In this document: piece after piece, positions 15,738 to 39,831 of the stretch
Numbering within the stretch: position 1 is the stretch's first letter
Layout of the letters: each line of letters opens with the position of its first letter
DNA from: a virus
Virus record (IMG/VR): IMGVR_UViG_3300044655_001100
Span: 32,187-96,186 of that record
DNA: 64,000 nucleotides
Strand: one strand, 5' to 3'
Translations under genes and position numbers: made by a program
The notes under the pieces: model-generated
Database searches by the model: none
Seen by the model: only the letters and a program-made list of their open reading frames with translations
What the model was told of the DNA's origin: nothing

Positions 15738-16526
15738 TTAGGTGTCAAGGCGTTTTGTATAATATTCTTCGTGCTTCTTGATAGCCAACCCAATTATCTC
15801 TGGTATCTGAGGAACTACAGCATTTCCTAGGGCTCTAGTTCTGTCCATCCGGTTGGAAACCCCATGAGCCACTCGATGAATGGCGGGTTCACATGGCCAT
15901 CCCCCTTTTTCCATCCTACGGATAACGCTACTTGTGTACCTAGATGAGAAGACTTTTCTATCGGTCTGAGATCCCCCCGATGATTCTGATTCCGGCATGT
16001 CATCCCCATCACCGAATCCGATGCCTTGGGGGTAGGCCACAATCCAGACTCTCTCACGGATGTGCGGTGCGCCAATGCTGGCCGCCGATATGCTTTCCCA
16101 TTCTGCGTCATACCCGATCTCGGCCAAATCTCCGAGAACGGTGTCCATTCCTCTAGCAAGCAACCCTGGGACGTTTTCCACGATGACGTATCTGGGTCGT
16201 ATTTCGCTAATAAGTCTGGCGAATTCTGACCATAATCCGCTGCGCTTTCCTTCAATCCCATTTTTTGCGCCAGCTGTGCTAACGTCCTGGCACGGGAACC
16301 CCCCACAGATTGCCTCAACGGTGATTCCGTCTCTTCTAAGTTGCTCTCCTGAAATAGTGGTAACGTCTTCATAAAGCGGAACCTCTGGCCAATGCTTGGA
16401 TAAAACTTTTTTACAAAACGGATCTATTTCACAAAAGGCTACAGTCTGAAAAGCTTGGGACCTTTCGAGCCCCAAGCTAAACCCACCAATGCCAGAAAAT
16501 AAATCAAGCAGTTTTATAGGAGCCAT
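15738..16526 (-). CDS. C5 cytosine methyltransferase, alpha chain (lacks motif IX)
   Basis: LDLFSGIGG (I), GFPCQ (IV), ENV (VI), RERVW (VIII), LGNAVVPQ (X); ATG overlaps the ATPase stop (TGATG). Confidence 0.92.
   Translation of the reverse strand: MAPIKLLDLFSGIGGFSLGLERSQAFQTVAFCEIDPFCKKVLSKHWPEVPLYEDVTTISGEQLRRDGITVEAICGGFPCQDVSTAGAKNGIEGKRSGLWSEFARLISEIRPRYVIVENVPGLLARGMDTVLGDLAEIGYDAEWESISAASIGAPHIRERVWIVAYPQGIGFGDGDDMPESESSGGSQTDRKVFSSRYTSSVIRRMEKGGWPCEPAIHRVAHGVSNRMDRTRALGNAVVPQIPEIIGLAIKKHEEYYTKRLDT
15827..16372 (-). CDS. C5 methyltransferase beta chain, nested in an alternative frame
   Basis: WPTPKASD module and VNPPFIEWLMGFPTGWT (motif IX-like); GGAGG RBS. Confidence 0.8.
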   Translation of the reverse strand: MKTLPLFQESNLEETESPLRQSVGGSRARTLAQLAQKMGLKESAADYGQNSPDLLAKYDPDTSSWKTSQGCLLEEWTPFSEIWPRSGMTQNGKAYRRPALAHRTSVRESGLWPTPKASDSVMGMTCRNQNHRGDLRPIEKSSHLGTQVALSVGWKKGDGHVNPPFIEWLMGFPTGWTELEP

Positions 16527-18397
16527 CAAGATGCCTGTTTCAGTGATGTCACATTGTAGCGCGACATTTTTAACATGGCATCGCTCATCATATCTTCCCA
16601 AAATCCTGCCGATACGGACAAACTTTCTGGAGAATACCCTTTTTCAATCGAAGAGCTAGACCAAATACCTTCTATTTCATTGCTTCGTGCAGTTATCCAC
16701 GCACTACCAACTAAGTATTCAAATTGCTCTTTAATTTTTTCTCTTGCTGCTTCTCTCATTTCAGCTTGATCTGGGTATCCAGGGTAATGATTGCATAACG
16801 CTTCCCATGCATCATTAAACCATTTGTGATTTAGATTAAGATATAGCGTATTGTTTCCATCATAAGACGCAAACATACCGGCGCCAATTTTTGTTAGAAT
16901 ATCTTCCTCATCATCAAGCCATTGTGGGTCTGGCATAATGTAAAGATTTTCATCATATTTTATTTTACGTTGTCCTCTTTTAGCTATATTAATACGAATA
17001 GTATCGTTGTTTGGTGGGTTAGGGTTTGGTGGAGTTGGAGGTCTTGGTTTCCACGGCCTATGAATTCTAACACGTTCTGCGGTTTCATCATCGGAAGCTT
17101 CTTCTCCTTCCTTAGAAACTTGAGGGGTTGTTTTCTTTAATTTCAATCTGTCCAGCTTTTCCTGCAGGCGTTTTTTGGATTTCTCACTGGAAGATATGCT
17201 TTTGTCGTATTCCTTAATTTTATCCAATACCCATTGCGGTCTGTATTCCCACATAATCTCACTAAAATCTTCAAGCTTTACCTCCTCGTCTGGTTTATCC
17301 GTATAGGATAGAAATGAACGGTCGCTGCTTGAAGCAATATTAAGATAATTATCCGGCAACTCTACGATAACTGATATAAATCTCCAACCAAAACGAATCC
17401 CTAACTTATGGGCGCAATCAGACCATTTCTGTTTTGTAGTATTTGAGCGTAAGTCATAAAATTCGTTTTTATAAACAATGCCTCCACGACTGCCAAATGA
17501 AAACATATTGCCGTCTTCTGCCCTTGTTCCAGATCTATTGGGTGATTTTGGATCATGGAAAAAATGAATTTTAATTCCATCTTGGCATCTAACAATATCG
17601 TGTTTATCCCACCATGCAGATCCATCCTGCTTAATTCTATTATCCATAGCGGTCATAGTCCAGAATTGACGTGGACTCATCTCATCTGGTCTACTATGAG
17701 TTCCTTGGTGAAAACGTATTTCCGCATTCTCTGGTATTCTAAAATAACGATTGAATAAATATAGGCCAAGCCAAAGCTGATCTTCTTTTACTTTTGGATC
17801 ATAGGGATAAAAACAAGTATTTTGATTATACTCGTTACCAAATAGCGTCACTTCCGTCCATTCATCTTCTGTAGAATAGCGACCTTCTTGAGCAACGATA
17901 TCAGTAACATCATCAATTGTATCAGTTGTTCCATCTTCATATTGGTATTTCATTCTTCCATATGTTTTACCGTCATCTGAAAGCTTTAATATTGTTTCAT
18001 GTACAGAACCTTGTCGGCATGATCGTATTCTAAGACCTTTTTTATTTGATTTAAGAGAGGCTATCTTGGCGCCAATTCCATAATTATCCGTGAGAGATCT
18101 AATTTTATTTAACACTACTGAAAGATCTGACATTAAATGTAGATCTTTTCGGCTCATGCCTGGCCCATTATTCCAGATGGAAAGTTTAGGGGCATCCCCT
18201 AATTCTGGAATAAATGTAGGATAAAATCTTATAAATCCTTTTCCAGAAACGTCTTGAGTAGAAGCCTCAATTGCGTTTTGAGTTAACTCTCGCATCATCA
18301 TACCGGACGGGCATTTTTCAATGTCGCGATAAATGGAAAATTCTTCGCCACCATCAGAAGCGTATTTTAGTGGATCAACATCATTGTATGATGCCAT
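16526..18397 (-). CDS. GHKL (MORC/Hsp90-like) ATPase
   Basis: RELTQNAIEA, NNGPGM, YGIGAKIA; Pro-rich linker; LYLNLNHKWF. Confidence 0.8.
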   Translation of the reverse strand: MASYNDVDPLKYASDGGEEFSIYRDIEKCPSGMMMRELTQNAIEASTQDVSGKGFIRFYPTFIPELGDAPKLSIWNNGPGMSRKDLHLMSDLSVVLNKIRSLTDNYGIGAKIASLKSNKKGLRIRSCRQGSVHETILKLSDDGKTYGRMKYQYEDGTTDTIDDVTDIVAQEGRYSTEDEWTEVTLFGNEYNQNTCFYPYDPKVKEDQLWLGLYLFNRYFRIPENAEIRFHQGTHSRPDEMSPRQFWTMTAMDNRIKQDGSAWWDKHDIVRCQDGIKIHFFHDPKSPNRSGTRAEDGNMFSFGSRGGIVYKNEFYDLRSNTTKQKWSDCAHKLGIRFGWRFISVIVELPDNYLNIASSSDRSFLSYTDKPDEEVKLEDFSEIMWEYRPQWVLDKIKEYDKSISSSEKSKKRLQEKLDRLKLKKTTPQVSKEGEEASDDETAERVRIHRPWKPRPPTPPNPNPPNNDTIRINIAKRGQRKIKYDENLYIMPDPQWLDDEEDILTKIGAGMFASYDGNNTLYLNLNHKWFNDAWEALCNHYPGYPDQAEMREAAREKIKEQFEYLVGSAWITARSNEIEGIWSSSSIEKGYSPESLSVSAGFWEDMMSDAMLKMSRYNVTSLKQAS

Positions 18398-20177: not shown

Positions 20178-21536
20178 TTAAAATCCATCCTCATCCTCAT
20201 CATCCCAAAAATTATCTGATTTAGTTTCTTTCAGGAATGATGGGATGTTTTCCTCTGGTTCATTTGTATCAGTTTCTGATACATCATTAGTTTCTGGCGC
20301 CTCTAAACCCCATGCTTCCCAGCCATCTCTTGCTCTTCTGGCATTCAATTCAATTTTGGGAAGGCTAGGAAAATAAGCTTCAATCATCCGGTAAATGCTG
20401 TCTGGCTTTACGCTGTGTTCCTGTACAGGATCGCTGAACACAGACGGGAATTGTGAACCAGGGGCTGGAGAAGGAATCACTCCCTTTACGCCAACCAATA
20501 AAATCTCATGCTGGTTTCTAAACCAGTAACCAGTTCCCATGCGATCTTTAACCCAGACTGCTTGAGACTTGTACGTGAAGCCCCATGATTCCATCACCCG
20601 CAAAGCATCGGGAAGCATTGGAACTGTAGCCCAGAGAAACAAAACAGAATTCCTATCTGCAATATCTCCTATTGGGAGATTGCAAATATCATCTGTTGTT
20701 TGACATGGATAATGATTATCAGCGGATCGATCCATTCCGTTATCGCTGAAGGTTTTAAATTTCCACGGTGGATCAGCCAAAATGATTCCAAACTTGGCAT
20801 CCGGTAGGGATATTTGTTTCTGACCTAGGACACGTTCCTTCTCGGCTCGTTCCTGCTTTTTTACCTCAGCCCTTGCCGATACCTTCTCTCCTCCTCTGGC
20901 CCTTTCAATCAGAGCGGCCTGTACATCCTCAGCCAGCTTCGCCAGTGCGTCTAATTCAACGCCAGCATCCAATGAGGTGCCTACGAGCTCAGCGATATCC
21001 TTGATGCTTTTAACCCGCTTTGCGTCCCGCTCTACTGCTGCAGAGGATCGATTGGTGTCCCTAGCCACGGCTTGGGCTGAGTTGGAATGTTTGGTCTCAG
21101 ATAGTTTCCCCTCAAATTGAGAGGAAATTCCCTCGTCTGATTCGTCCCTTGGACCAGTTTTGAGTCGGTATTTTATTTCTGCGATCTCTTTGAGTCGCGC
21201 AAAGTGCATAGATTGTTGGGCTGCAGTCAGTTCGTGCCGAATCAAATTTTCGCAAAGTTCAATTTGCTCTGCGTCTAGGGCATCTATTCCCTCTAAAACA
21301 GTGGCTTGGATATTTTCCCATTTAAGCCTTTTGGCTGCTTCCAGACGATGGCGCCCAGCAATCAGAACATATCCGTTTTCTTCTGTACGCCGTACGCAGA
21401 TGGGATTTATCAGACCAATATCACCCATAGATGCAGCGAGTCTTTCAACAAGGTCTGGTCTTTTGGGAATATGCCGATCATCAGAAATATGAATTAAAAC
21501 AACACCAATATTCTCAACATTATGTTGATTTGTCAT
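20178..21536 (-). CDS. ParB-like N-domain fused to MT-A70 adenine methyltransferase
   Basis: GLINPI.V......LIAGRHRLEA...ENL.R.EL; ADPPW...HY...LFLWAT...WGF.YK...HSVKP. Confidence 0.9.
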   Translation of the reverse strand: MTNQHNVENIGVVLIHISDDRHIPKRPDLVERLAASMGDIGLINPICVRRTEENGYVLIAGRHRLEAAKRLKWENIQATVLEGIDALDAEQIELCENLIRHELTAAQQSMHFARLKEIAEIKYRLKTGPRDESDEGISSQFEGKLSETKHSNSAQAVARDTNRSSAAVERDAKRVKSIKDIAELVGTSLDAGVELDALAKLAEDVQAALIERARGGEKVSARAEVKKQERAEKERVLGQKQISLPDAKFGIILADPPWKFKTFSDNGMDRSADNHYPCQTTDDICNLPIGDIADRNSVLFLWATVPMLPDALRVMESWGFTYKSQAVWVKDRMGTGYWFRNQHEILLVGVKGVIPSPAPGSQFPSVFSDPVQEHSVKPDSIYRMIEAYFPSLPKIELNARRARDGWEAWGLEAPETNDVSETDTNEPEENIPSFLKETKSDNFWDDEDEDGF

Positions 21537-23427: not shown

Positions 23428-24006
23428 ATGAAAGTATTAACAAAGCCGCGAGAATTGGTATCTATTGATATAATTAAAGAATTTCTAGATTATAATGATA
23501 ATACAGGGAAGCTGTATTGGAAAGTAAGAGATATTAAGTATTTTAATGATGGTGAGAGAAAAGCTAATGCATGTTCTATATGGAATTCTAGATATTCTGG
23601 GAAAGAGGCTGGATGCATAGATGGCAGTAACAGAATTATTATAAGAATATTTAAAAATACATTTTTTGCTCATAGGCTTGCCTTTATTATTATGAAAGGG
23701 AGAGAACCAATTGAGCAAATAGATCACATTAATGGTGATTCTTTAGACAATAGATGGTGTAATCTTAGAGAATGTTTTGATTATGAAAATAAGCAAAATT
23801 TAACTTTGCGGTCAGATAGTTCTACAAAAGTTCAAGGTGTATATTTTCACAAAAAACGTACAAAAAATCCTTACGAATCTAGAATTAGATTGCGCGGCAA
23901 ATCTTATCATCTAGGTATGTTTAAAACATCTGAAGAAGCAGATAAGGCATACTTAAAAGCAAAACAAAAATTACATACCTTCCAACCAACTCCAAGGGAG
24001 GGTTGA
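23428..24006 (+). CDS. HNH homing endonuclease (AP2-like C-terminus)
   Basis: AHRLAF, IDHINGDSLDNRWCNLRE, HLG.F.T.EEA..AY. Confidence 0.9.
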   Translation: MKVLTKPRELVSIDIIKEFLDYNDNTGKLYWKVRDIKYFNDGERKANACSIWNSRYSGKEAGCIDGSNRIIIRIFKNTFFAHRLAFIIMKGREPIEQIDHINGDSLDNRWCNLRECFDYENKQNLTLRSDSSTKVQGVYFHKKRTKNPYESRIRLRGKSYHLGMFKTSEEADKAYLKAKQKLHTFQPTPREG

Positions 24007-26200: not shown

Positions 26201-27505
26201 TCACATAATTGCTTTGATCACCTCTGCCGCCAATTGCGGTACGATAGCATTGCCTAGGGCTTTTAGCTTTGCGGCTCTTGCTTCTGCTTTCGTGATGAGG
26301 AGCGGGATGGAGGGGCGCAATCCATCCATTCCTTCGGGAACCCCATGAGCCAAGCCACAAAGTCCGGATTGAGGGAACCACGGGGCTCGTCTGGTTTTTC
26401 CGTCGGCTCCTGTGATCCAGATTGAATCTCTCCAATATGAAGAGACGCTATTGTTGAAACAGTAGCTCCTCGGTTTTGTCCCAGCCAAGAGCTCCCCGCT
26501 TCTGCTATGCTCTGAGCATTCGATGGGCCTTGATGGTTCTCGTTCGCTCTTGGTGTCGGCCAGGGAGCCGTATGTTGGTAGATCTCCTCTGATAGATATC
26601 CTGTCGTCCTGCCTGTCGCTGCTCTGGACGGACGTAATCCCTTCCGGTCCGCTGCGTCCGATGTTGTTGGTGTCGGCCATGTCGCTGCAGTCAGTAGCGC
26701 TGCTTCCGATAGATTCTTCTGTCTGCCCTGATCCCATCGTTTCAGAGCTTTCTGTGGATCGCTGTATTCCCCGCCGCCCTTCTCTCTGCAATTCGGTGTC
26801 GGCCATGTCGAATGAATTGCTACTTGCTGGCCCAGTGTCGCTGTTTCCGGCCTCAACATTCGACTGGGAGGTATTGACGATCCGTCTTTCCAATCCCTCG
26901 CTCTGGGCGTTGTCCAGGTTCCTGCCTGAAAGCTCAAAGCCGATCCCCCTTGAGCATATTTCTTTTTTCTCATTCCCTTGTCGTCTGCGCATGGTGTTGT
27001 CCATGCTAACCCAATAGAGTCTCTCTCTGATGTGAGGCGCATTGACCGAACATGCGCTAAGATTAAACGCTTGGCAGGAGTAGTCTTGACTTTCCAGATC
27101 ATCGAAAACTCCATCGAGCCAATTGAGCCCAGCTGCGCCACCAACTTGCTCTCCGATGGCGACAGGCGGTCTACATGCACTGATGAGTCTATAAAGGTGA
27201 GGCCAAAGATGCCGCTCATCGGCTTCCCCTTTCCCTTTCCCTGCAACGGAGAAAGGCTGACAGGGGCAGCTTCCTGACCAGATTTCCCGGTCCGATGGGA
27301 ATCCTGCGAGTTTAAGGGCAAGTGGAAAGCCGGCGATTCCACAGAAGAAATGGGCTTGGACAAATCCTCTGACATCATCAGGCTGAATAAGCTGAATTGG
27401 TCGGCTGTCGATTTCACCATCTGGTATTAACCCCTTTTTAATAAGATTTTTTATCCATTCTATGCAGTATGGTTCAATCTCATTATAAAAATTCCATTTT
27501 TTCAT
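26201..27505 (-). CDS. Permuted C5 cytosine methyltransferase, alpha chain with long low-complexity insert
   Basis: YNEIEP, HFFCGIAG, SCPCQPFS, EQV, HIRERLYWV, LKALGNAIVPQ. Confidence 0.9.
   Translation of the reverse strand: MKKWNFYNEIEPYCIEWIKNLIKKGLIPDGEIDSRPIQLIQPDDVRGFVQAHFFCGIAGFPLALKLAGFPSDREIWSGSCPCQPFSVAGKGKGEADERHLWPHLYRLISACRPPVAIGEQVGGAAGLNWLDGVFDDLESQDYSCQAFNLSACSVNAPHIRERLYWVSMDNTMRRRQGNEKKEICSRGIGFELSGRNLDNAQSEGLERRIVNTSQSNVEAGNSDTGPASSNSFDMADTELQREGRRGIQRSTESSETMGSGQTEESIGSSATDCSDMADTNNIGRSGPEGITSVQSSDRQDDRISIRGDLPTYGSLADTKSEREPSRPIECSEHSRSGELLAGTKPRSYCFNNSVSSYWRDSIWITGADGKTRRAPWFPQSGLCGLAHGVPEGMDGLRPSIPLLITKAEARAAKLKALGNAIVPQLAAEVIKAIM
26263..27420 (-). CDS. C5 methyltransferase beta chain (alternative frame) with five W(P/T)TP modules
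   Basis: Five W[PT]TP units followed by LNPDFVAWLMGFPKEW. Confidence 0.8.
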   Translation of the reverse strand: MVKSTADQFSLFSLMMSEDLSKPISSVESPAFHLPLNSQDSHRTGKSGQEAAPVSLSPLQGKGKGKPMSGIFGLTFIDSSVHVDRLSPSESKLVAQLGSIGSMEFSMIWKVKTTPAKRLILAHVRSMRLTSERDSIGLAWTTPCADDKGMRKKKYAQGGSALSFQAGTWTTPRARDWKDGSSIPPSRMLRPETATLGQQVAIHSTWPTPNCREKGGGEYSDPQKALKRWDQGRQKNLSEAALLTAATWPTPTTSDAADRKGLRPSRAATGRTTGYLSEEIYQHTAPWPTPRANENHQGPSNAQSIAEAGSSWLGQNRGATVSTIASLHIGEIQSGSQEPTEKPDEPRGSLNPDFVAWLMGFPKEWMDCAPPSRSSSRKQKQEPQS

Positions 27506-28023
27506 TTTTTGTTTCTCTGAAAATTATATGATTTAATTATCCAATCCTTAAAGTTTTGTATAGGCATATCATTTTTTGCTCTGTTACAAATCATGCAACA
27601 AGAAACACAGTTATTTTTGTCATATCCATCTGTATTTACTACTCTATCAACTCCTTTTGAGGGATTTGTACCACAATAATGGCACTCACCCCAAAAAAAA
27701 TGTTCAAATTCTTCTTTTGTAATATTCCATAAATAATTTCTTTTTTCAGCGCTTTTTCTATAATTATAAAATGCTTCATTGATAATAACTGTATCTTTTG
27801 ACATACGTTCTCTTCCTACCCATGCCAATTTACGAGAGCAGGATGCACATGAGAAAACATTTCCCAATGCTAGTTTACTAAACCTTACTTTCCTTAGATT
27901 TCCGCAATTACATCTGCACAGTGCTATTGGAGCATTAGATTTTGATCCATCGTAACATTCAATTACTCTTAACTTACCAAACATCATTCCTAGTTTTATG
28001 TCGTTCTTTATTCCTCTAGCCAT
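27502..28023 (-). CDS. HNH endonuclease
   Basis: FGKL.V...CRCNCG; CHYCG....GVDRV....GY...NCVSCC..CN.AK. Confidence 0.88.
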   Translation of the reverse strand: MARGIKNDIKLGMMFGKLRVIECYDGSKSNAPIALCRCNCGNLRKVRFSKLALGNVFSCASCSRKLAWVGRERMSKDTVIINEAFYNYRKSAEKRNYLWNITKEEFEHFFWGECHYCGTNPSKGVDRVVNTDGYDKNNCVSCCMICNRAKNDMPIQNFKDWIIKSYNFQRNKK

Positions 28024-38184: not shown

Positions 38185-39831
38185 ATGAATGTCAACTACA
38201 TGATAGAACAGATTAGGTTACATGAGGGTGATTGTTTGGTTGTCTTGGCTGGTATTGCTGAGGATAGTGTTGATGCTGTTGTTACTGATCCGCCGTATGA
38301 GTTAGGATTTATGGGTAAGTCCTGGGATGACAGTGGGATTGCGTTTTGCCCGGATACATGGCGACAGGTATTGAGGGTGATGAAGCCAGGGGCTCATCTT
38401 GTGGCGTTTGGTGCGCCGAAGAATTATCATCGCTTGGCATGTGCGATTGAGGATGCTGGCTTTGAGATACGTGATAGCTTGATGTGGGTGTTTGGCACTG
38501 GTTTCCCGAAGAGCGCTAATGTCTCGAAGCAGATTGATAAGGCTGCTGGGGCAGAGCGTGAGGTGGTTGGGTTTAGAAATCCTTCTGGATCGGCAGTTGC
38601 GGGAAACGTAGAGCGTGATCATTCAGGATCTCATATATGGACTGGTCGTCTTACAAGTGAAAATGGAATAACAGATGACGCTAAAAATTGGCAAGGCTGG
38701 GGAACAGCGCTTAAACCTGCGTATGAGCCAATCGTCCTTGCACGAAAGCCGTTAAGCGAAAAGACTGTTGCTGCGAATGTCCTGCGCTGGGGAACTGGCG
38801 CATTGAATATTGATGCGACTAGGGTTGAGACTAACCCAGAAGTTGATGACCCTAGACTTGGTGGCAAGGGCTCATGGAAAACAGATAAGGCCGCTAAGAA
38901 TGTTTATGAAGGTGGCTATGCCGGAAAAGAGATAGCGTCATCATCATTGGGCCGCTGGCCAGCTAATCTCTGCCACGATGGAAGTCAGATGGTTTTAGAT
39001 TTGTTTCCGTATTCAAAAAGCACTGGTGGCGATGGCTACAGAAACTCTATGTTTTGCGGCGGCAAGAAAACTGGCGGTCACGGATTAGGCGACGAAGGCT
39101 CAGCAGCCCGTTTCTTTGCTTCATTTAAACAGGATTATGGACAATGGCTAGGCCAAAGCCTCCAGCAATCGCCTGTGAGCGATGTGGAACACTATTCATC
39201 CCTGCAAAGCGAAGCCGCCGCTTCTGCTCTAAGTCTTGCAGTGGAAGCGCCAACGCCGCGATTGGTGCTGAGAAACATAAGCTGCCCGGAACAAAATACG
39301 AGCGTCTCGGAGACGCAATTAAAGAGCGTATGCGAGTTCGTTACTACAGCGATGACGACTTTAGAAAAAAGGTTCTTGCAAGGGCTGCCGCCAGAAAGGC
39401 TTTCCCTATCGGACAGCCATGCCAGTATTGTGGCAATCCAAGAGCCGACAGGCATCATCACGATTACGATAAGCCTATTGAAATTGAATGGATTTGCCGA
39501 AGCTGCCACGTTGCGCACCATAGAGAGGAGCGCGGAACATGGGGGCGGGGATTTAGCTGCACATAAACGCTTTCATTACAGCGCCAAGGCAAGCAAGACA
39601 GATAGAGCCGGAAGCAAACATCCTACAGTTAAACCTGTCAGCCTAATGCAATGGCTAGTTAGAATGGTTACGCCACCCAATGGAACCGTATTGGATTTAT
39701 TTGCTGGCAGCGGCACTACAGGACAGGCTGCTATTAATGAAGGATTTAATGCTATATTAATTGAAAGAGAAGCAGAGTATATTAATGATATTAAAAACAG
39801 ATTATCATTAAAGATTAAAGAAGCAGTATAG
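38185..39831 (+). CDS. N6-adenine/N4-cytosine DNA methyltransferase (beta class) with ~150-aa insert
   Basis: VTDPPY, GRWPAN, SAARFF, HPTVKP, VLDLFAGSGTTG. Confidence 0.92.
   Translation: MNVNYMIEQIRLHEGDCLVVLAGIAEDSVDAVVTDPPYELGFMGKSWDDSGIAFCPDTWRQVLRVMKPGAHLVAFGAPKNYHRLACAIEDAGFEIRDSLMWVFGTGFPKSANVSKQIDKAAGAEREVVGFRNPSGSAVAGNVERDHSGSHIWTGRLTSENGITDDAKNWQGWGTALKPAYEPIVLARKPLSEKTVAANVLRWGTGALNIDATRVETNPEVDDPRLGGKGSWKTDKAAKNVYEGGYAGKEIASSSLGRWPANLCHDGSQMVLDLFPYSKSTGGDGYRNSMFCGGKKTGGHGLGDEGSAARFFASFKQDYGQWLGQSLQQSPVSDVEHYSSLQSEAAASALSLAVEAPTPRLVLRNISCPEQNTSVSETQLKSVCEFVTTAMTTLEKRFLQGLPPERLSLSDSHASIVAIQEPTGIITITISLLKLNGFAEAATLRTIERSAEHGGGDLAAHKRFHYSAKASKTDRAGSKHPTVKPVSLMQWLVRMVTPPNGTVLDLFAGSGTTGQAAINEGFNAILIEREAEYINDIKNRLSLKIKEAV
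39144..39566 (+). CDS. HNH endonuclease nested out of frame in the MTase
   Basis: CERCG..F.......FCS.SC; CQYCG.....HH.DY.KP....W.CRSCH..HH; AGGA 9 nt upstream. Confidence 0.85.
   Translation: MARPKPPAIACERCGTLFIPAKRSRRFCSKSCSGSANAAIGAEKHKLPGTKYERLGDAIKERMRVRYYSDDDFRKKVLARAAARKAFPIGQPCQYCGNPRADRHHHDYDKPIEIEWICRSCHVAHHREERGTWGRGFSCT

What the first reader, a model, noticed from the sequence alone, without database searches (positions are those of the whole stretch)
26201..27505. Dual-frame C5 methyltransferase with a tandem array of five specificity-like modules
Seen: two same-strand frames stay open over ~1.15 kb. The alpha frame has catalytic motifs and motif X but a low-complexity middle; the beta frame has five W[PT]TP units and a motif IX-like LNP...WLMGFP. 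Units begin at a conserved DNA seed (TGGCCGACACC / TGGACAAC; + coordinates about 26552, 26669, 26795, 26906, 26993) with spacings that are multiples of 3. Known: M.EcoHK31I has a beta chain encoded in an alternative frame, and Bacillus phage multispecific MTases use tandem target-recognition domains. Inference: a combination of both, with modules gained or lost by recombination at the seed.
Basis: partly seen in the sequence, partly recalled or inferred. Interest (0 to 1): 0.8.

Follow-up and report, generated by a model that had tools for sequence, protein, structure and literature searches.

The report
Two-frame phage cytosine methylase, five cassettes
One 1.3-kb phage gene is read in two overlapping frames. 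These most likely give the catalytic half and the DNA-reading half of one cytosine methyltransferase, and the DNA-reading half carries five different, exchangeable modules that may let the enzyme protect several DNA sequences at once.

Summary
On the minus strand, a 434-codon frame (alpha, 26201-27505) encloses a 385-codon +1 frame (beta, 26263-27420).

Alpha holds C5-methyltransferase motifs I, IV, VI, VIII and X, joined by about 240 residues that are predicted to be disordered. Beta holds a conserved hairpin, five W(P/T)TP cassettes and motif IX.

The layout is selected, not chance. Beta lies at +1 in every sampled relative where both frames were found. Alpha's middle has no stop in 77 of 77 loci, although synonymous shuffles of beta put in 1-8 stops. 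Of 58 complete genes fetched by alpha motifs alone, 57 carry beta. A beta profile finds 34,750 cluster representatives, yet beta matches no Pfam, NCBIfam or PDB entry.

The five cassettes are of five different types. Across relatives the types occur in any order, and a type is seldom repeated within one array (5 arrays against 28 expected). A 16-nt perfect repeat brackets cassette 3, and a close relative lacks exactly those 42 codons.

Best reading: a two-subunit enzyme of the M.EcoHK31I kind whose beta chain carries swappable recognition cassettes. Multispecificity is inferred, not shown.

This scan has already found the same layout and the cassette shuffling on other DNA, with at least 41 notes. 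The same phage also holds a second copy with one cassette.

The parts
26201..27505 (-). alpha ORF, 434 aa: catalytic subunit of a C5 DNA methyltransferase. Its ATG overlaps the stop of the upstream endonuclease-like gene (ATGA).
   Evidence: PF00145 7.6e-18; phrog_363 8e-67; Foldseek M.HhaI 6e-9
26263..27420 (-). beta ORF, 385 aa, +1 frame of alpha and fully nested: proposed recognition subunit
   Evidence: phrog_1008 6e-29; 34,750 cluster representatives at E<=1e-3
27431..27437 (-). AAAGGGG, a Shine-Dalgarno-like site 10 nt upstream of beta's ATG (27418-27420)
   Evidence: In relatives with the DG.VD motif the Asp codon is GAT, which makes the +1 ATG, in 30 of 36 against 45% GAT elsewhere. 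24 of 28 have an SD-like 4-mer.
27329..27349 (-). alpha motif I (FFCGIAG, AdoMet binding)
27248..27265 (-). alpha motif IV (PCQPFS, catalytic Cys82)
27143..27154 (-). alpha motif VI (GEQV, aligned with ENV of M.HhaI)
27017..27037 (-). alpha motif VIII (PHIRERL, aligned with QKRER of M.HhaI)
26252..26968 (-). alpha residues 180-418: Ser/Arg/Gly/Glu-rich stretch predicted to be disordered. It is the -1-frame shadow of beta (WPTP reads as MADT) and is kept free of stops.
26237..26254 (-). alpha motif X (GNAIVP), followed by a confidently predicted C-terminal helix
27031..27123 (-). beta residues 100-130: conserved beta-hairpin (GS.EF..WK...TP.KR), encoded over alpha motifs VI-VIII
   Evidence: (pLDDT 73-95)
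26917..27003 (-). cassette m1 (WTTP..., KKKYAQGG type)
   Evidence: best match 85% identical, at residue 404 of P0079
26806..26916 (-). cassette m2 (WTTPRARDWKDG... type)
   Evidence: 81% to P0003
26680..26805 (-). cassette m3 (WPTP..GGGEYSDPQKA type), bracketed by 16-nt perfect direct repeats and absent from relative P0137
26563..26679 (-). cassette m4 (WPTP..RPSRAATGRTTGYL type)
26431..26562 (-). cassette m5 (WPTPRANEN..GSSWLGQNRGATV type) plus the linker to motif IX
   Evidence: 83% to P0013
26326..26373 (-). beta motif IX (LNPDFVAWLMGFPKEW)
   Evidence: (pLDDT about 90)
26795..26810 (.). 16-nt perfect direct repeat, copy 1 (GGTGTCGGCCATGTCG on the + strand)
26669..26684 (.). 16-nt perfect direct repeat, copy 2, 126 nt from copy 1
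26552..26562 (.). third exact copy of the 11-nt seed

Best explanation
The gene makes two proteins from one DNA stretch.

Alpha is the catalytic subunit. It has a Rossmann domain with motifs I-VIII (Cys82 is the nucleophile) and a C-terminal motif-X helix. The two are joined by about 240 unstructured residues whose sequence is only what beta's codons spell in the -1 frame.

Beta is translated from its own SD and ATG, 85 nt inside alpha. It supplies what alpha lacks: a conserved hairpin and motif IX, which presumably dock on alpha and rebuild the small domain, with five different W(P/T)TP cassettes of 29-44 residues between them facing the DNA.

The heterodimer methylates cytosine C5 in the phage's DNA and so protects it from host restriction. 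The cassettes most likely act as alternative target-recognition units, so that one catalytic core serves several target sequences. Arrays are rebuilt by recombination at the conserved TGGCCGAC seed.

Shown here: the dual coding, selection on both frames, the split of motifs, and the exchange of cassettes.
Inferred: the physical assembly, the need for both chains, and one target per cassette.

My odds: dual coding is real, 0.95; two-subunit enzyme, 0.8; cassettes are independent specificities, about 0.45.
For: Dual coding is conserved:
- Beta is at +1 in all 79 loci of the beta-seeded sets (L001-L083 plus the window) where both frames were found, with overlaps of 774-1302 nt.
- 57 of 58 complete genes found through alpha motifs alone carry a +1 ORF with W.TP and motif IX. 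The +2 frame stays open for a median of only 213 nt.

Both frames are selected:
- Alpha's middle has 0 stops in 77 of 77 loci, while synonymous shuffles of beta give a mean of 1-7.6 stops. The stop-free fraction of shuffles has a median of about 0.025, and is 0.005 for the window. The third frame has 0-18 stops there (0 in one locus only, 8 in the window).
- Beta residues over alpha 141-150 are more conserved than alpha itself.
- The Asp codon that makes beta's ATG is biased to GAT.
- GC content jumps from 26% in the alpha-only 5' part to 52-56% in the dual-coded part.

Structure:
- In the alpha model, residues 1-178 and 419-434 are mostly confident and match M.HhaI, while most of 180-418 has pLDDT below 50.
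- In the beta model, only the hairpin and the motif IX helix are confident.

Precedent: M.EcoHK31I needs both chains, and its beta is nested in another frame of alpha (PMC2836561, PMC3404938).

Cassettes:
- 2-11 W.TP units per protein in 200 relatives (1-11 with the stricter rule), with 192 different architectures.
- 51 of 69 co-occurring type pairs are seen in both orders. A type is repeated within one array in 5 arrays, against 28.3 +/- 4.5 expected.
- The window's cassettes find matches of 64-85% identity at other positions in proteins whose N-domain is only 39-47% identical.
- There is a 42-codon indel exactly between the 16-nt repeats.
- The same phage carries a one-cassette paralogue, so one cassette may be enough.
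Against: - No expression or methylation data exist for this gene or, as far as I could find, for any member of this subfamily.
- Beta alone is predicted to be mostly unstructured, and no complex could be modelled with the tools on hand.
- Cassette homology to known target-recognition domains is not established. Beta has no Pfam, NCBIfam or PDB match, and Foldseek on the beta model gave nothing.
- The counts of order and redundancy ignore shared ancestry among the sampled loci.
- M.EcoHK31I is described with its TRD in alpha, not in beta, and I could not obtain its sequence to test for homology.
Confidence: 0.55

Rival explanations
1. It is a two-subunit enzyme, but the cassettes together form one composite DNA-binding domain. 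That domain would give a single or relaxed specificity, or tune affinity. The number of cassettes does not equal the number of targets.
For: No cassette could be linked to a target. AF2 shows no separate folded unit per cassette. The WPTP core and the 'LAG' ends are shared, as in structural repeats.
Against: Cassettes occur in free order. The number of W.TP units ranges from 1 to 11. The same type is avoided within an array, and cassettes are exchanged between distant scaffolds. These patterns are not what a domain of fixed topology would show. One-cassette forms also exist.
Confidence: 0.25
2. Beta is a real nested protein but not a methyltransferase subunit. It could be, for example, a regulator or an anti-defence protein that merely shares the locus, while alpha works alone or with a host factor.
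For: Beta matches no curated methyltransferase model. Alpha keeps a conserved W..W..ADGK.RR segment of its own ahead of motif X.
Against: Alpha has no folded small domain and no motif IX. Beta carries a textbook motif IX at the position expected between VIII and X. In every complete locus sampled from the alpha side, beta is nested with alpha. M.EcoHK31I is a precedent.
Confidence: 0.08
3. A single polypeptide is made by two programmed frameshifts: alpha N-terminus, then beta middle, then alpha C-terminus. This would give the canonical motif order I-VIII, TRD, IX, X.
For: The motif order along the DNA is collinear with that of a canonical single-chain enzyme.
Against: This model does not need alpha's middle or beta's first 140 codons to be open, yet both are kept open and beta's N-part is conserved as protein. 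Beta has a conserved ATG and SD. I did not search for a slippery site. The rare natural in-frame chimeras look decayed: P0118 has lost the catalytic Cys, and L077 and L157 are frameshifted.
Confidence: 0.03
4. Chance open frame, pseudogene or assembly error.
For: A 268-nt deletion variant of this very gene exists in another assembly (P0135).
Against: The layout recurs in hundreds of fetched loci, and a beta profile finds 34,750 cluster representatives. All catalytic residues are intact.
Confidence: 0.01

Closest known systems
M.EcoHK31I (E. coli HK31, YGGCCR), a heterodimeric C5-methyltransferase (Lee, Kam and Shaw 1995, as described in PMC2836561 and PMC3404938)
   Same: Beta is encoded wholly inside the alpha gene in another reading frame. 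[quoted passage not shown] In M.EcoHK31I both chains are needed for activity.
   Different: M.EcoHK31I is described with its TRD in alpha and with beta contributing only motif IX. Here alpha's middle is a disordered shadow, and beta carries a conserved N-terminal hairpin plus five recognition-like cassettes. M.EcoHK31I belongs to a restriction-modification pair, whereas this gene is an orphan in a phage that holds four methyltransferases. Sequence homology could not be tested because the sequence and the 1995 paper were not available.
Multispecific C5-methyltransferases of Bacillus phages (M.SPRI, M.Phi3TI, M.H2I and others; Wilke et al. 1988, as cited in PMC8936443)
   Same: Phage-borne, and they carry several short recognition units in tandem between motifs VIII and IX. 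The comparison of unit size, differing sets of units in different enzymes and exchange between enzymes rests on my memory of that literature. PMC8936443 states only that the domains lie in tandem and give multiple recognition sequences.
   Different: Those enzymes are single polypeptides in one frame and have measured multiple specificities. Here the units sit on a separate nested chain, share a W(P/T)TP core, and have no measured target. Homology of the units was not tested.
M.AquI (CYCGRG), a two-polypeptide C5-methyltransferase (PMC3404938)
   Same: A C5 enzyme that is naturally split into a catalytic chain and a second chain carrying motif IX.
   Different: In M.AquI the second chain carries both IX and X. 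PMC3404938 does not describe one M.AquI gene as nested inside the other. Here X stays on alpha and beta is fully nested.

Membership tests
C5 DNA methyltransferase (PF00145), alpha chain | Motif I FxGxG (AdoMet binding) | tested here: met
   FFCGIAG at residues 53-59. The N-domain is modelled with pLDDT 82-95.
C5 DNA methyltransferase (PF00145), alpha chain | Motif IV PCQ with the catalytic Cys, motif VI ENV, motif VIII QxRxR | tested here: met
   P81-C82-Q83, E119-Q120-V121 and H158-I-R160-E-R162 align with M.HhaI residues 71-176. PF00145 E=7.6e-18.
C5 DNA methyltransferase (PF00145), alpha chain | Folded small domain (TRD plus motif IX) on the same chain | tested here: not met
   Most of alpha 180-418 has pLDDT below 50 and the middle (171-350) is not conserved. 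Motif IX lies in the +1 frame.
C5 DNA methyltransferase (PF00145), alpha chain | Motif X GN(A/S)(V/I)xP | tested here: met
   GNAIVP at residues 418-423, with a confident C-terminal helix.
C5 DNA methyltransferase (PF00145), alpha chain | Catalytic-domain fold | tested here: met
   Foldseek best hits are M.HhaI (E=6e-9) and M.HaeIII, with about 190 aligned columns.
M.EcoHK31I-type nested heterodimeric methyltransferase | Beta ORF lies inside the alpha gene in another frame | tested here: met
M.EcoHK31I-type nested heterodimeric methyltransferase | Alpha has motifs I-VIII and X, beta has motif IX | tested here: met
M.EcoHK31I-type nested heterodimeric methyltransferase | Both polypeptides are required for methylation | not testable with these tools
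   Needs expression and a methylation assay.
M.EcoHK31I-type nested heterodimeric methyltransferase | Sequence homology to M.EcoHK31I alpha and beta | not tested
   The sequence was not obtainable: PMC306636 is not held, no hit or 55 bears that name, and the searches of E. coli genomes and plasmids were uninformative.
M.EcoHK31I-type nested heterodimeric methyltransferase | TRD located in alpha, as the literature describes | tested here: not met
   Alpha's middle is a disordered shadow, and the conserved cassettes are in beta.
Bacillus-phage multispecific C5-methyltransferases | Single polypeptide | tested here: not met
   Two nested ORFs.
Bacillus-phage multispecific C5-methyltransferases | Several different recognition units in tandem between motifs VIII and IX | tested here: inconclusive
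   Five different cassettes lie in that position on the DNA, but it is not shown that they are recognition units.
Bacillus-phage multispecific C5-methyltransferases | Each unit confers its own target sequence | not testable with these tools
   Needs methylome reads of cassette-deletion mutants.
Bacillus-phage multispecific C5-methyltransferases | Sequence homology of the units | not tested
   I had no reference sequences of those recognition domains. Beta gives no PF00145 hit even at E<=1.

The most novel reading that the evidence does not exclude
The W(P/T)TP cassettes are a natural plug-and-play recognition code. Each of the 25 or more recurrent cassette types (eight or more copies in my sample) would direct the shared catalytic core to one DNA sequence. 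Phages would then rebuild their protective methylation repertoire by swapping cassettes at an 11-16-nt seed, inside a gene that must stay readable in two frames. If so, the target set of tens of thousands of unannotated enzymes could be predicted from sequence, and the cassettes could be used as parts for programmable 5mC writers.
Probability: 0.4. Interest if true: 0.85.

Novelty: new variant of a known kind. Interest (0 to 1): 0.62.

Why it matters
- Long, fully nested same-strand gene pairs with two conserved products are rare in bacteria and phages. Here a beta profile finds 34,750 cluster representatives, yet beta has no curated model and is usually not annotated. Phage methyltransferases of this family are therefore routinely described as one protein with an odd 'low-complexity TRD'.
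- If the cassettes are independent recognition units, this is a second, independently organised route to multispecific anti-restriction methylation. It would also be a testable case of modular evolution under dual-frame constraint.
- It also bears on an open question. 'Hidden' HNH homing endonucleases inserted in phage methylase genes have no known route to translation (PMC11855218). In phage phiKX1 the HNH lies in the beta frame, directly after beta's stop codon.

Tried and rejected
Tools and sources that failed:
Cassette junctions in those relatives were read from the alpha frame only.
- Single-protein scans of viral and metagenome contigs found nothing. The alignment-based scans did work.
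- The genome search cannot draw relatives for a virus record.
- The M.EcoHK31I paper (PMC306636) and the Trautner-group papers (PMC457134, PMC1171429) are not held, and PMC2836561 has no supplement held as text.

Searches that gave nothing useful:
- E. coli genomes and plasmids gave no lead to M.EcoHK31I.
- Beta has no match in Pfam, NCBIfam or PDB sequences.
- Foldseek on the low-confidence beta model gave no match.
- The ESM Atlas gave only viral 'hypothetical protein' clusters.
- Tandem Repeats Finder sees no array in the gene.
- Full-text searches found no paper describing this family's nested gene or the cassettes.

Analyses with limits:
- The first, single-linkage clustering of cassettes merged everything through the WPTP core. 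I replaced it with core-stripped Louvain clustering.
- The test of where high-identity segments start had only 36 segments and is biased by the high-scoring Trp. I give it little weight.

Readings rejected: double programmed frameshift, chance ORF, and tandem duplication as the origin of the array. Tandem duplication would place the same cassette type side by side, which is rare.
Full report
WHAT IS THERE. The window is part of an IMG/VR virus record of 96,186 bases, estimated 79% complete. On the minus strand, the ORF listing gives a 434-codon ORF (alpha, 26201..27505) and a 385-codon ORF (beta, 26263..27420). Beta lies wholly inside alpha, one base downstream in phase.

Alpha matches PF00145 (7.6e-18) and phrog_363 (8e-67). 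Beta matches no Pfam or NCBIfam model but does match phrog_1008 (6e-29). Alpha carries motifs I, IV, VI, VIII and X. Beta carries W(P/T)TP at residues 140, 169, 206, 248 and 287, and LNPDFVAWLMGFPKEW at residues 350-365.

The seed TGGCCGACACC occurs three times in the gene and nowhere else in the 64 kb, where 0.04 copies are expected. No tandem repeat exists at the DNA level. 'Spacings that are multiples of three' only says that one peptide motif recurs in frame.

IS THE SECOND FRAME REAL? tblastn of beta against cultured phages hit 32 records, always inside methyltransferase genes and covering up to 99% of beta. In three very different phages both frames are open, with the same motif split, although annotators called only one of them or fragments. 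These are a Manatee Spring podovirus, cyanophage Cy-LDV1 and Komagataeibacter phage phiKX1.

A scan of IMG/VR with a beta alignment gave more than 466 loci. A scan of metagenomes with alpha motifs only gave more than 548. I kept 80 of each.
- In the beta-seeded sets, beta is at +1 of alpha in every locus where both frames were found. The overlap is 774-1302 nt.
- In the alpha-seeded set, which is not conditioned on beta, 57 of 58 complete genes have a +1 ORF of at least 600 nt with W.TP and motif IX. The 58th has the ORF but missed my motif pattern. The +2 frame stays open for a median of 213 nt.

SELECTION ON BOTH FRAMES. I shuffled synonymous codons of beta between alpha's motif VIII and beta's motif IX. 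This puts a mean of 1-7.6 stops into the alpha frame. The fraction of shuffles without a stop has a median of about 0.025, and is 0.005 for the window. The real sequences have none in 77 of 77 loci. The third frame has 0-18 stops there (0 in one locus only, 8 in the window). Alpha is therefore kept open through a stretch where its own residues are not conserved: identity to the window is at most 0.22, and the peaks sit at the MADT shadows of WPTP.

Conversely, beta's first 140 residues lie over alpha's catalytic domain, yet they are conserved as protein. Over alpha residues 141-150 beta is the more conserved of the two, and AlphaFold2 predicts a confident hairpin there.

Beta's ATG arises from a GAT Asp codon of alpha. 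In relatives with that motif GAT is used in 30 of 36 cases, against 45% for other Asp codons nearby, and 24 of 28 have an SD-like 4-mer upstream. The window has AAAGGGG 10 nt upstream of the ATG.

GC content is 26% in the 85 alpha-only bases and 52-56% through the dual-coded part, in a window that averages 44%.

These results exclude chance. They also argue against a single chain made by two frameshifts, because that model needs neither alpha's middle nor beta's N-terminal part to be open. The few in-frame chimeras look decayed: L077, L157, and P0118, which has lost the catalytic Cys.

WHAT THE TWO PRODUCTS LOOK LIKE. In the alpha model (70-sequence alignment), residues 1-178 and 419-434 are mostly confident, and most of 180-418 is below pLDDT 50. 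The folded part matches M.HhaI and M.HaeIII (Foldseek 6e-9). phmmer aligns alpha residues 72-173 with M.HhaI residues 71-176, motif for motif. Beta alone is mostly unstructured in the model, apart from the hairpin and the motif IX helix.

Alpha therefore lacks the small domain. Beta holds motif IX and everything that lies, on the DNA, where a target-recognition domain would be. This is the motif division reported for M.EcoHK31I, whose beta is nested in another frame of alpha and is needed for activity (PMC2836561, PMC3404938). The difference is that the literature places the M.EcoHK31I TRD in alpha. I could not obtain that sequence, so membership stays untested.

THE FIVE UNITS. Among 200 beta relatives, W.TP units number 2-11 by my first rule. 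With the stricter rule applied to 260 relatives they number 1-11, with a mode of 4. After removing the shared core, the cassettes cluster into recurrent types. The window's five belong to five different types.

Across relatives:
- There are 192 architectures among 200 proteins.
- 51 of 69 co-occurring type pairs are found in both orders.
- Only 5 of 246 arrays repeat a type, against 28.3 +/- 4.5 under random assortment, with a minimum of 13 in 2000 shuffles.

Each window cassette has matches of 64-85% identity in different proteins, at different positions. The best matches to beta's N-domain are only 39-47% identical.

Close relatives of alpha are nearly identical through the catalytic domain but differ by whole cassettes. 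Against P0137, BLASTP shows one clean 42-residue gap (alpha 235-276, that is 26678-26803) with conserved flanks. This is exactly the unit between the two 16-nt perfect repeats at 26669-26684 and 26795-26810.

The seed is also conserved beyond what the peptide needs. CCG encodes the first Pro in 209 of 292 WPTP cores family-wide, and in 3 of 3 here, although CCG is only 17% of Pro codons in this phage's single-coded genes.

So the cassettes are exchangeable and non-redundant. They were not made by local tandem duplication, and the seed is a plausible crossover point. That each cassette gives a separate target is inference. The pattern is the one known from the tandem recognition domains of Bacillus-phage multispecific enzymes (PMC8936443, citing Wilke et al. 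1988).

CONTEXT. The phage carries four DNA methyltransferases:
- this gene;
- a ParB_N plus MT-A70 fusion (20178..21536);
- an N6_N4 enzyme next to the large terminase subunit (38185..39831);
- a second two-frame C5 gene (alpha2 at 15738..16601, with beta2 nested at +1 at 15827..16372), which has a single WPTP cassette.

No restriction-enzyme family was matched by the flanking ORFs I scanned. This fits anti-restriction use. The one-cassette paralogue suggests that one cassette may be enough for an enzyme of this kind.

HOW COMMON, AND IS IT KNOWN? A beta profile finds 34,750 cluster representatives at E<=1e-3, and 8,862 at 1e-30. More than 7,359 alpha relatives were scored, and every listed hit that carries a source name is called a cytosine methyltransferase or methylase. 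Atlas neighbours of beta are viral 'hypothetical proteins'. Full-text searches found only M.EcoHK31I as a described case.

Earlier notes of this scan, at least 41 of them on other genomes, report the same two-frame layout, and some report the cassette shuffling. My tests were run independently and agree with them.

VERDICT. The locus is a genuine, selected dual-coding gene. It most likely encodes a heterodimeric C5-methyltransferase of the M.EcoHK31I kind whose nested chain carries five swappable cassettes. Whether it is multispecific can be tested directly but has not been shown.

Noticed in passing
window 15738-16601 (-) with nested 15827-16372 (-): A second two-frame C5 methyltransferase gene in the same phage. 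Alpha2 has 287 aa (PF00145 1.3e-45, phrog_363 8.5e-83). Beta2 is nested at +1 and has 181 aa (phrog_1008 2.8e-25), with a single WPTP cassette and VNPPFIEWLMGFPTGW.
   Followed up: partly
window 38185-39831 (+): An N6_N4 DNA methylase directly upstream of the large terminase subunit. Its Pfam match spans residues 29-537 for a 221-position profile, which implies an insertion of roughly 300 residues inside the enzyme.
   Followed up: no
window 20178-21536 (-): A fusion protein of ParB N-terminal domain and MT-A70 methyltransferase (PF02195 8e-10, PF05063 6e-26). It is one of the four DNA methyltransferases in this phage, counting the two C5 genes and the N6_N4 enzyme.
   Followed up: no
window about 26326-26593 (variant P0135): Another assembly holds a 322-aa product equal to alpha 1-304 joined to the last 20 residues of beta. 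That is a 268-nt deletion with a GGAT microhomology at the junction. It removes cassette 5, motif IX and motif X, so it is likely a dead variant or an assembly artefact.
   Followed up: partly
L003 2524-3042 (Komagataeibacter phage phiKX1): An HNH endonuclease ORF (PF01844 6e-6) is inserted near the 3' end of the methylase gene. It lies in the beta frame, one codon after beta's stop. It ends with a duplicate of beta's tail (AWDDCA..MPSSRK), while alpha reads straight through it (548 aa). This resembles the 'ShiLan' hidden HNH (PMC11855218), whose route of translation is unknown. Coupling to beta would be one explanation.
   Followed up: partly
P0136 (close relative of alpha, 536 aa): It carries an insertion of about 150 residues between the shadow of motif IX and motif X. 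This may be another mobile insert, but no DNA was available to check other frames.
   Followed up: no
window 27421-27505 versus 26263-27420: GC content steps sharply from 26% in the alpha-only 5' part to 52-56% in the dual-coded part. The step falls exactly at beta's start codon.
   Followed up: yes
window 27502-28023 (-): The upstream ORF of 173 aa resembles endonuclease VII or an HNH endonuclease (phrog_1035 3e-14). Its stop codon overlaps alpha's ATG (ATGA), which suggests translational coupling. Another HNH gene lies at 23428-24006.
   Followed up: no
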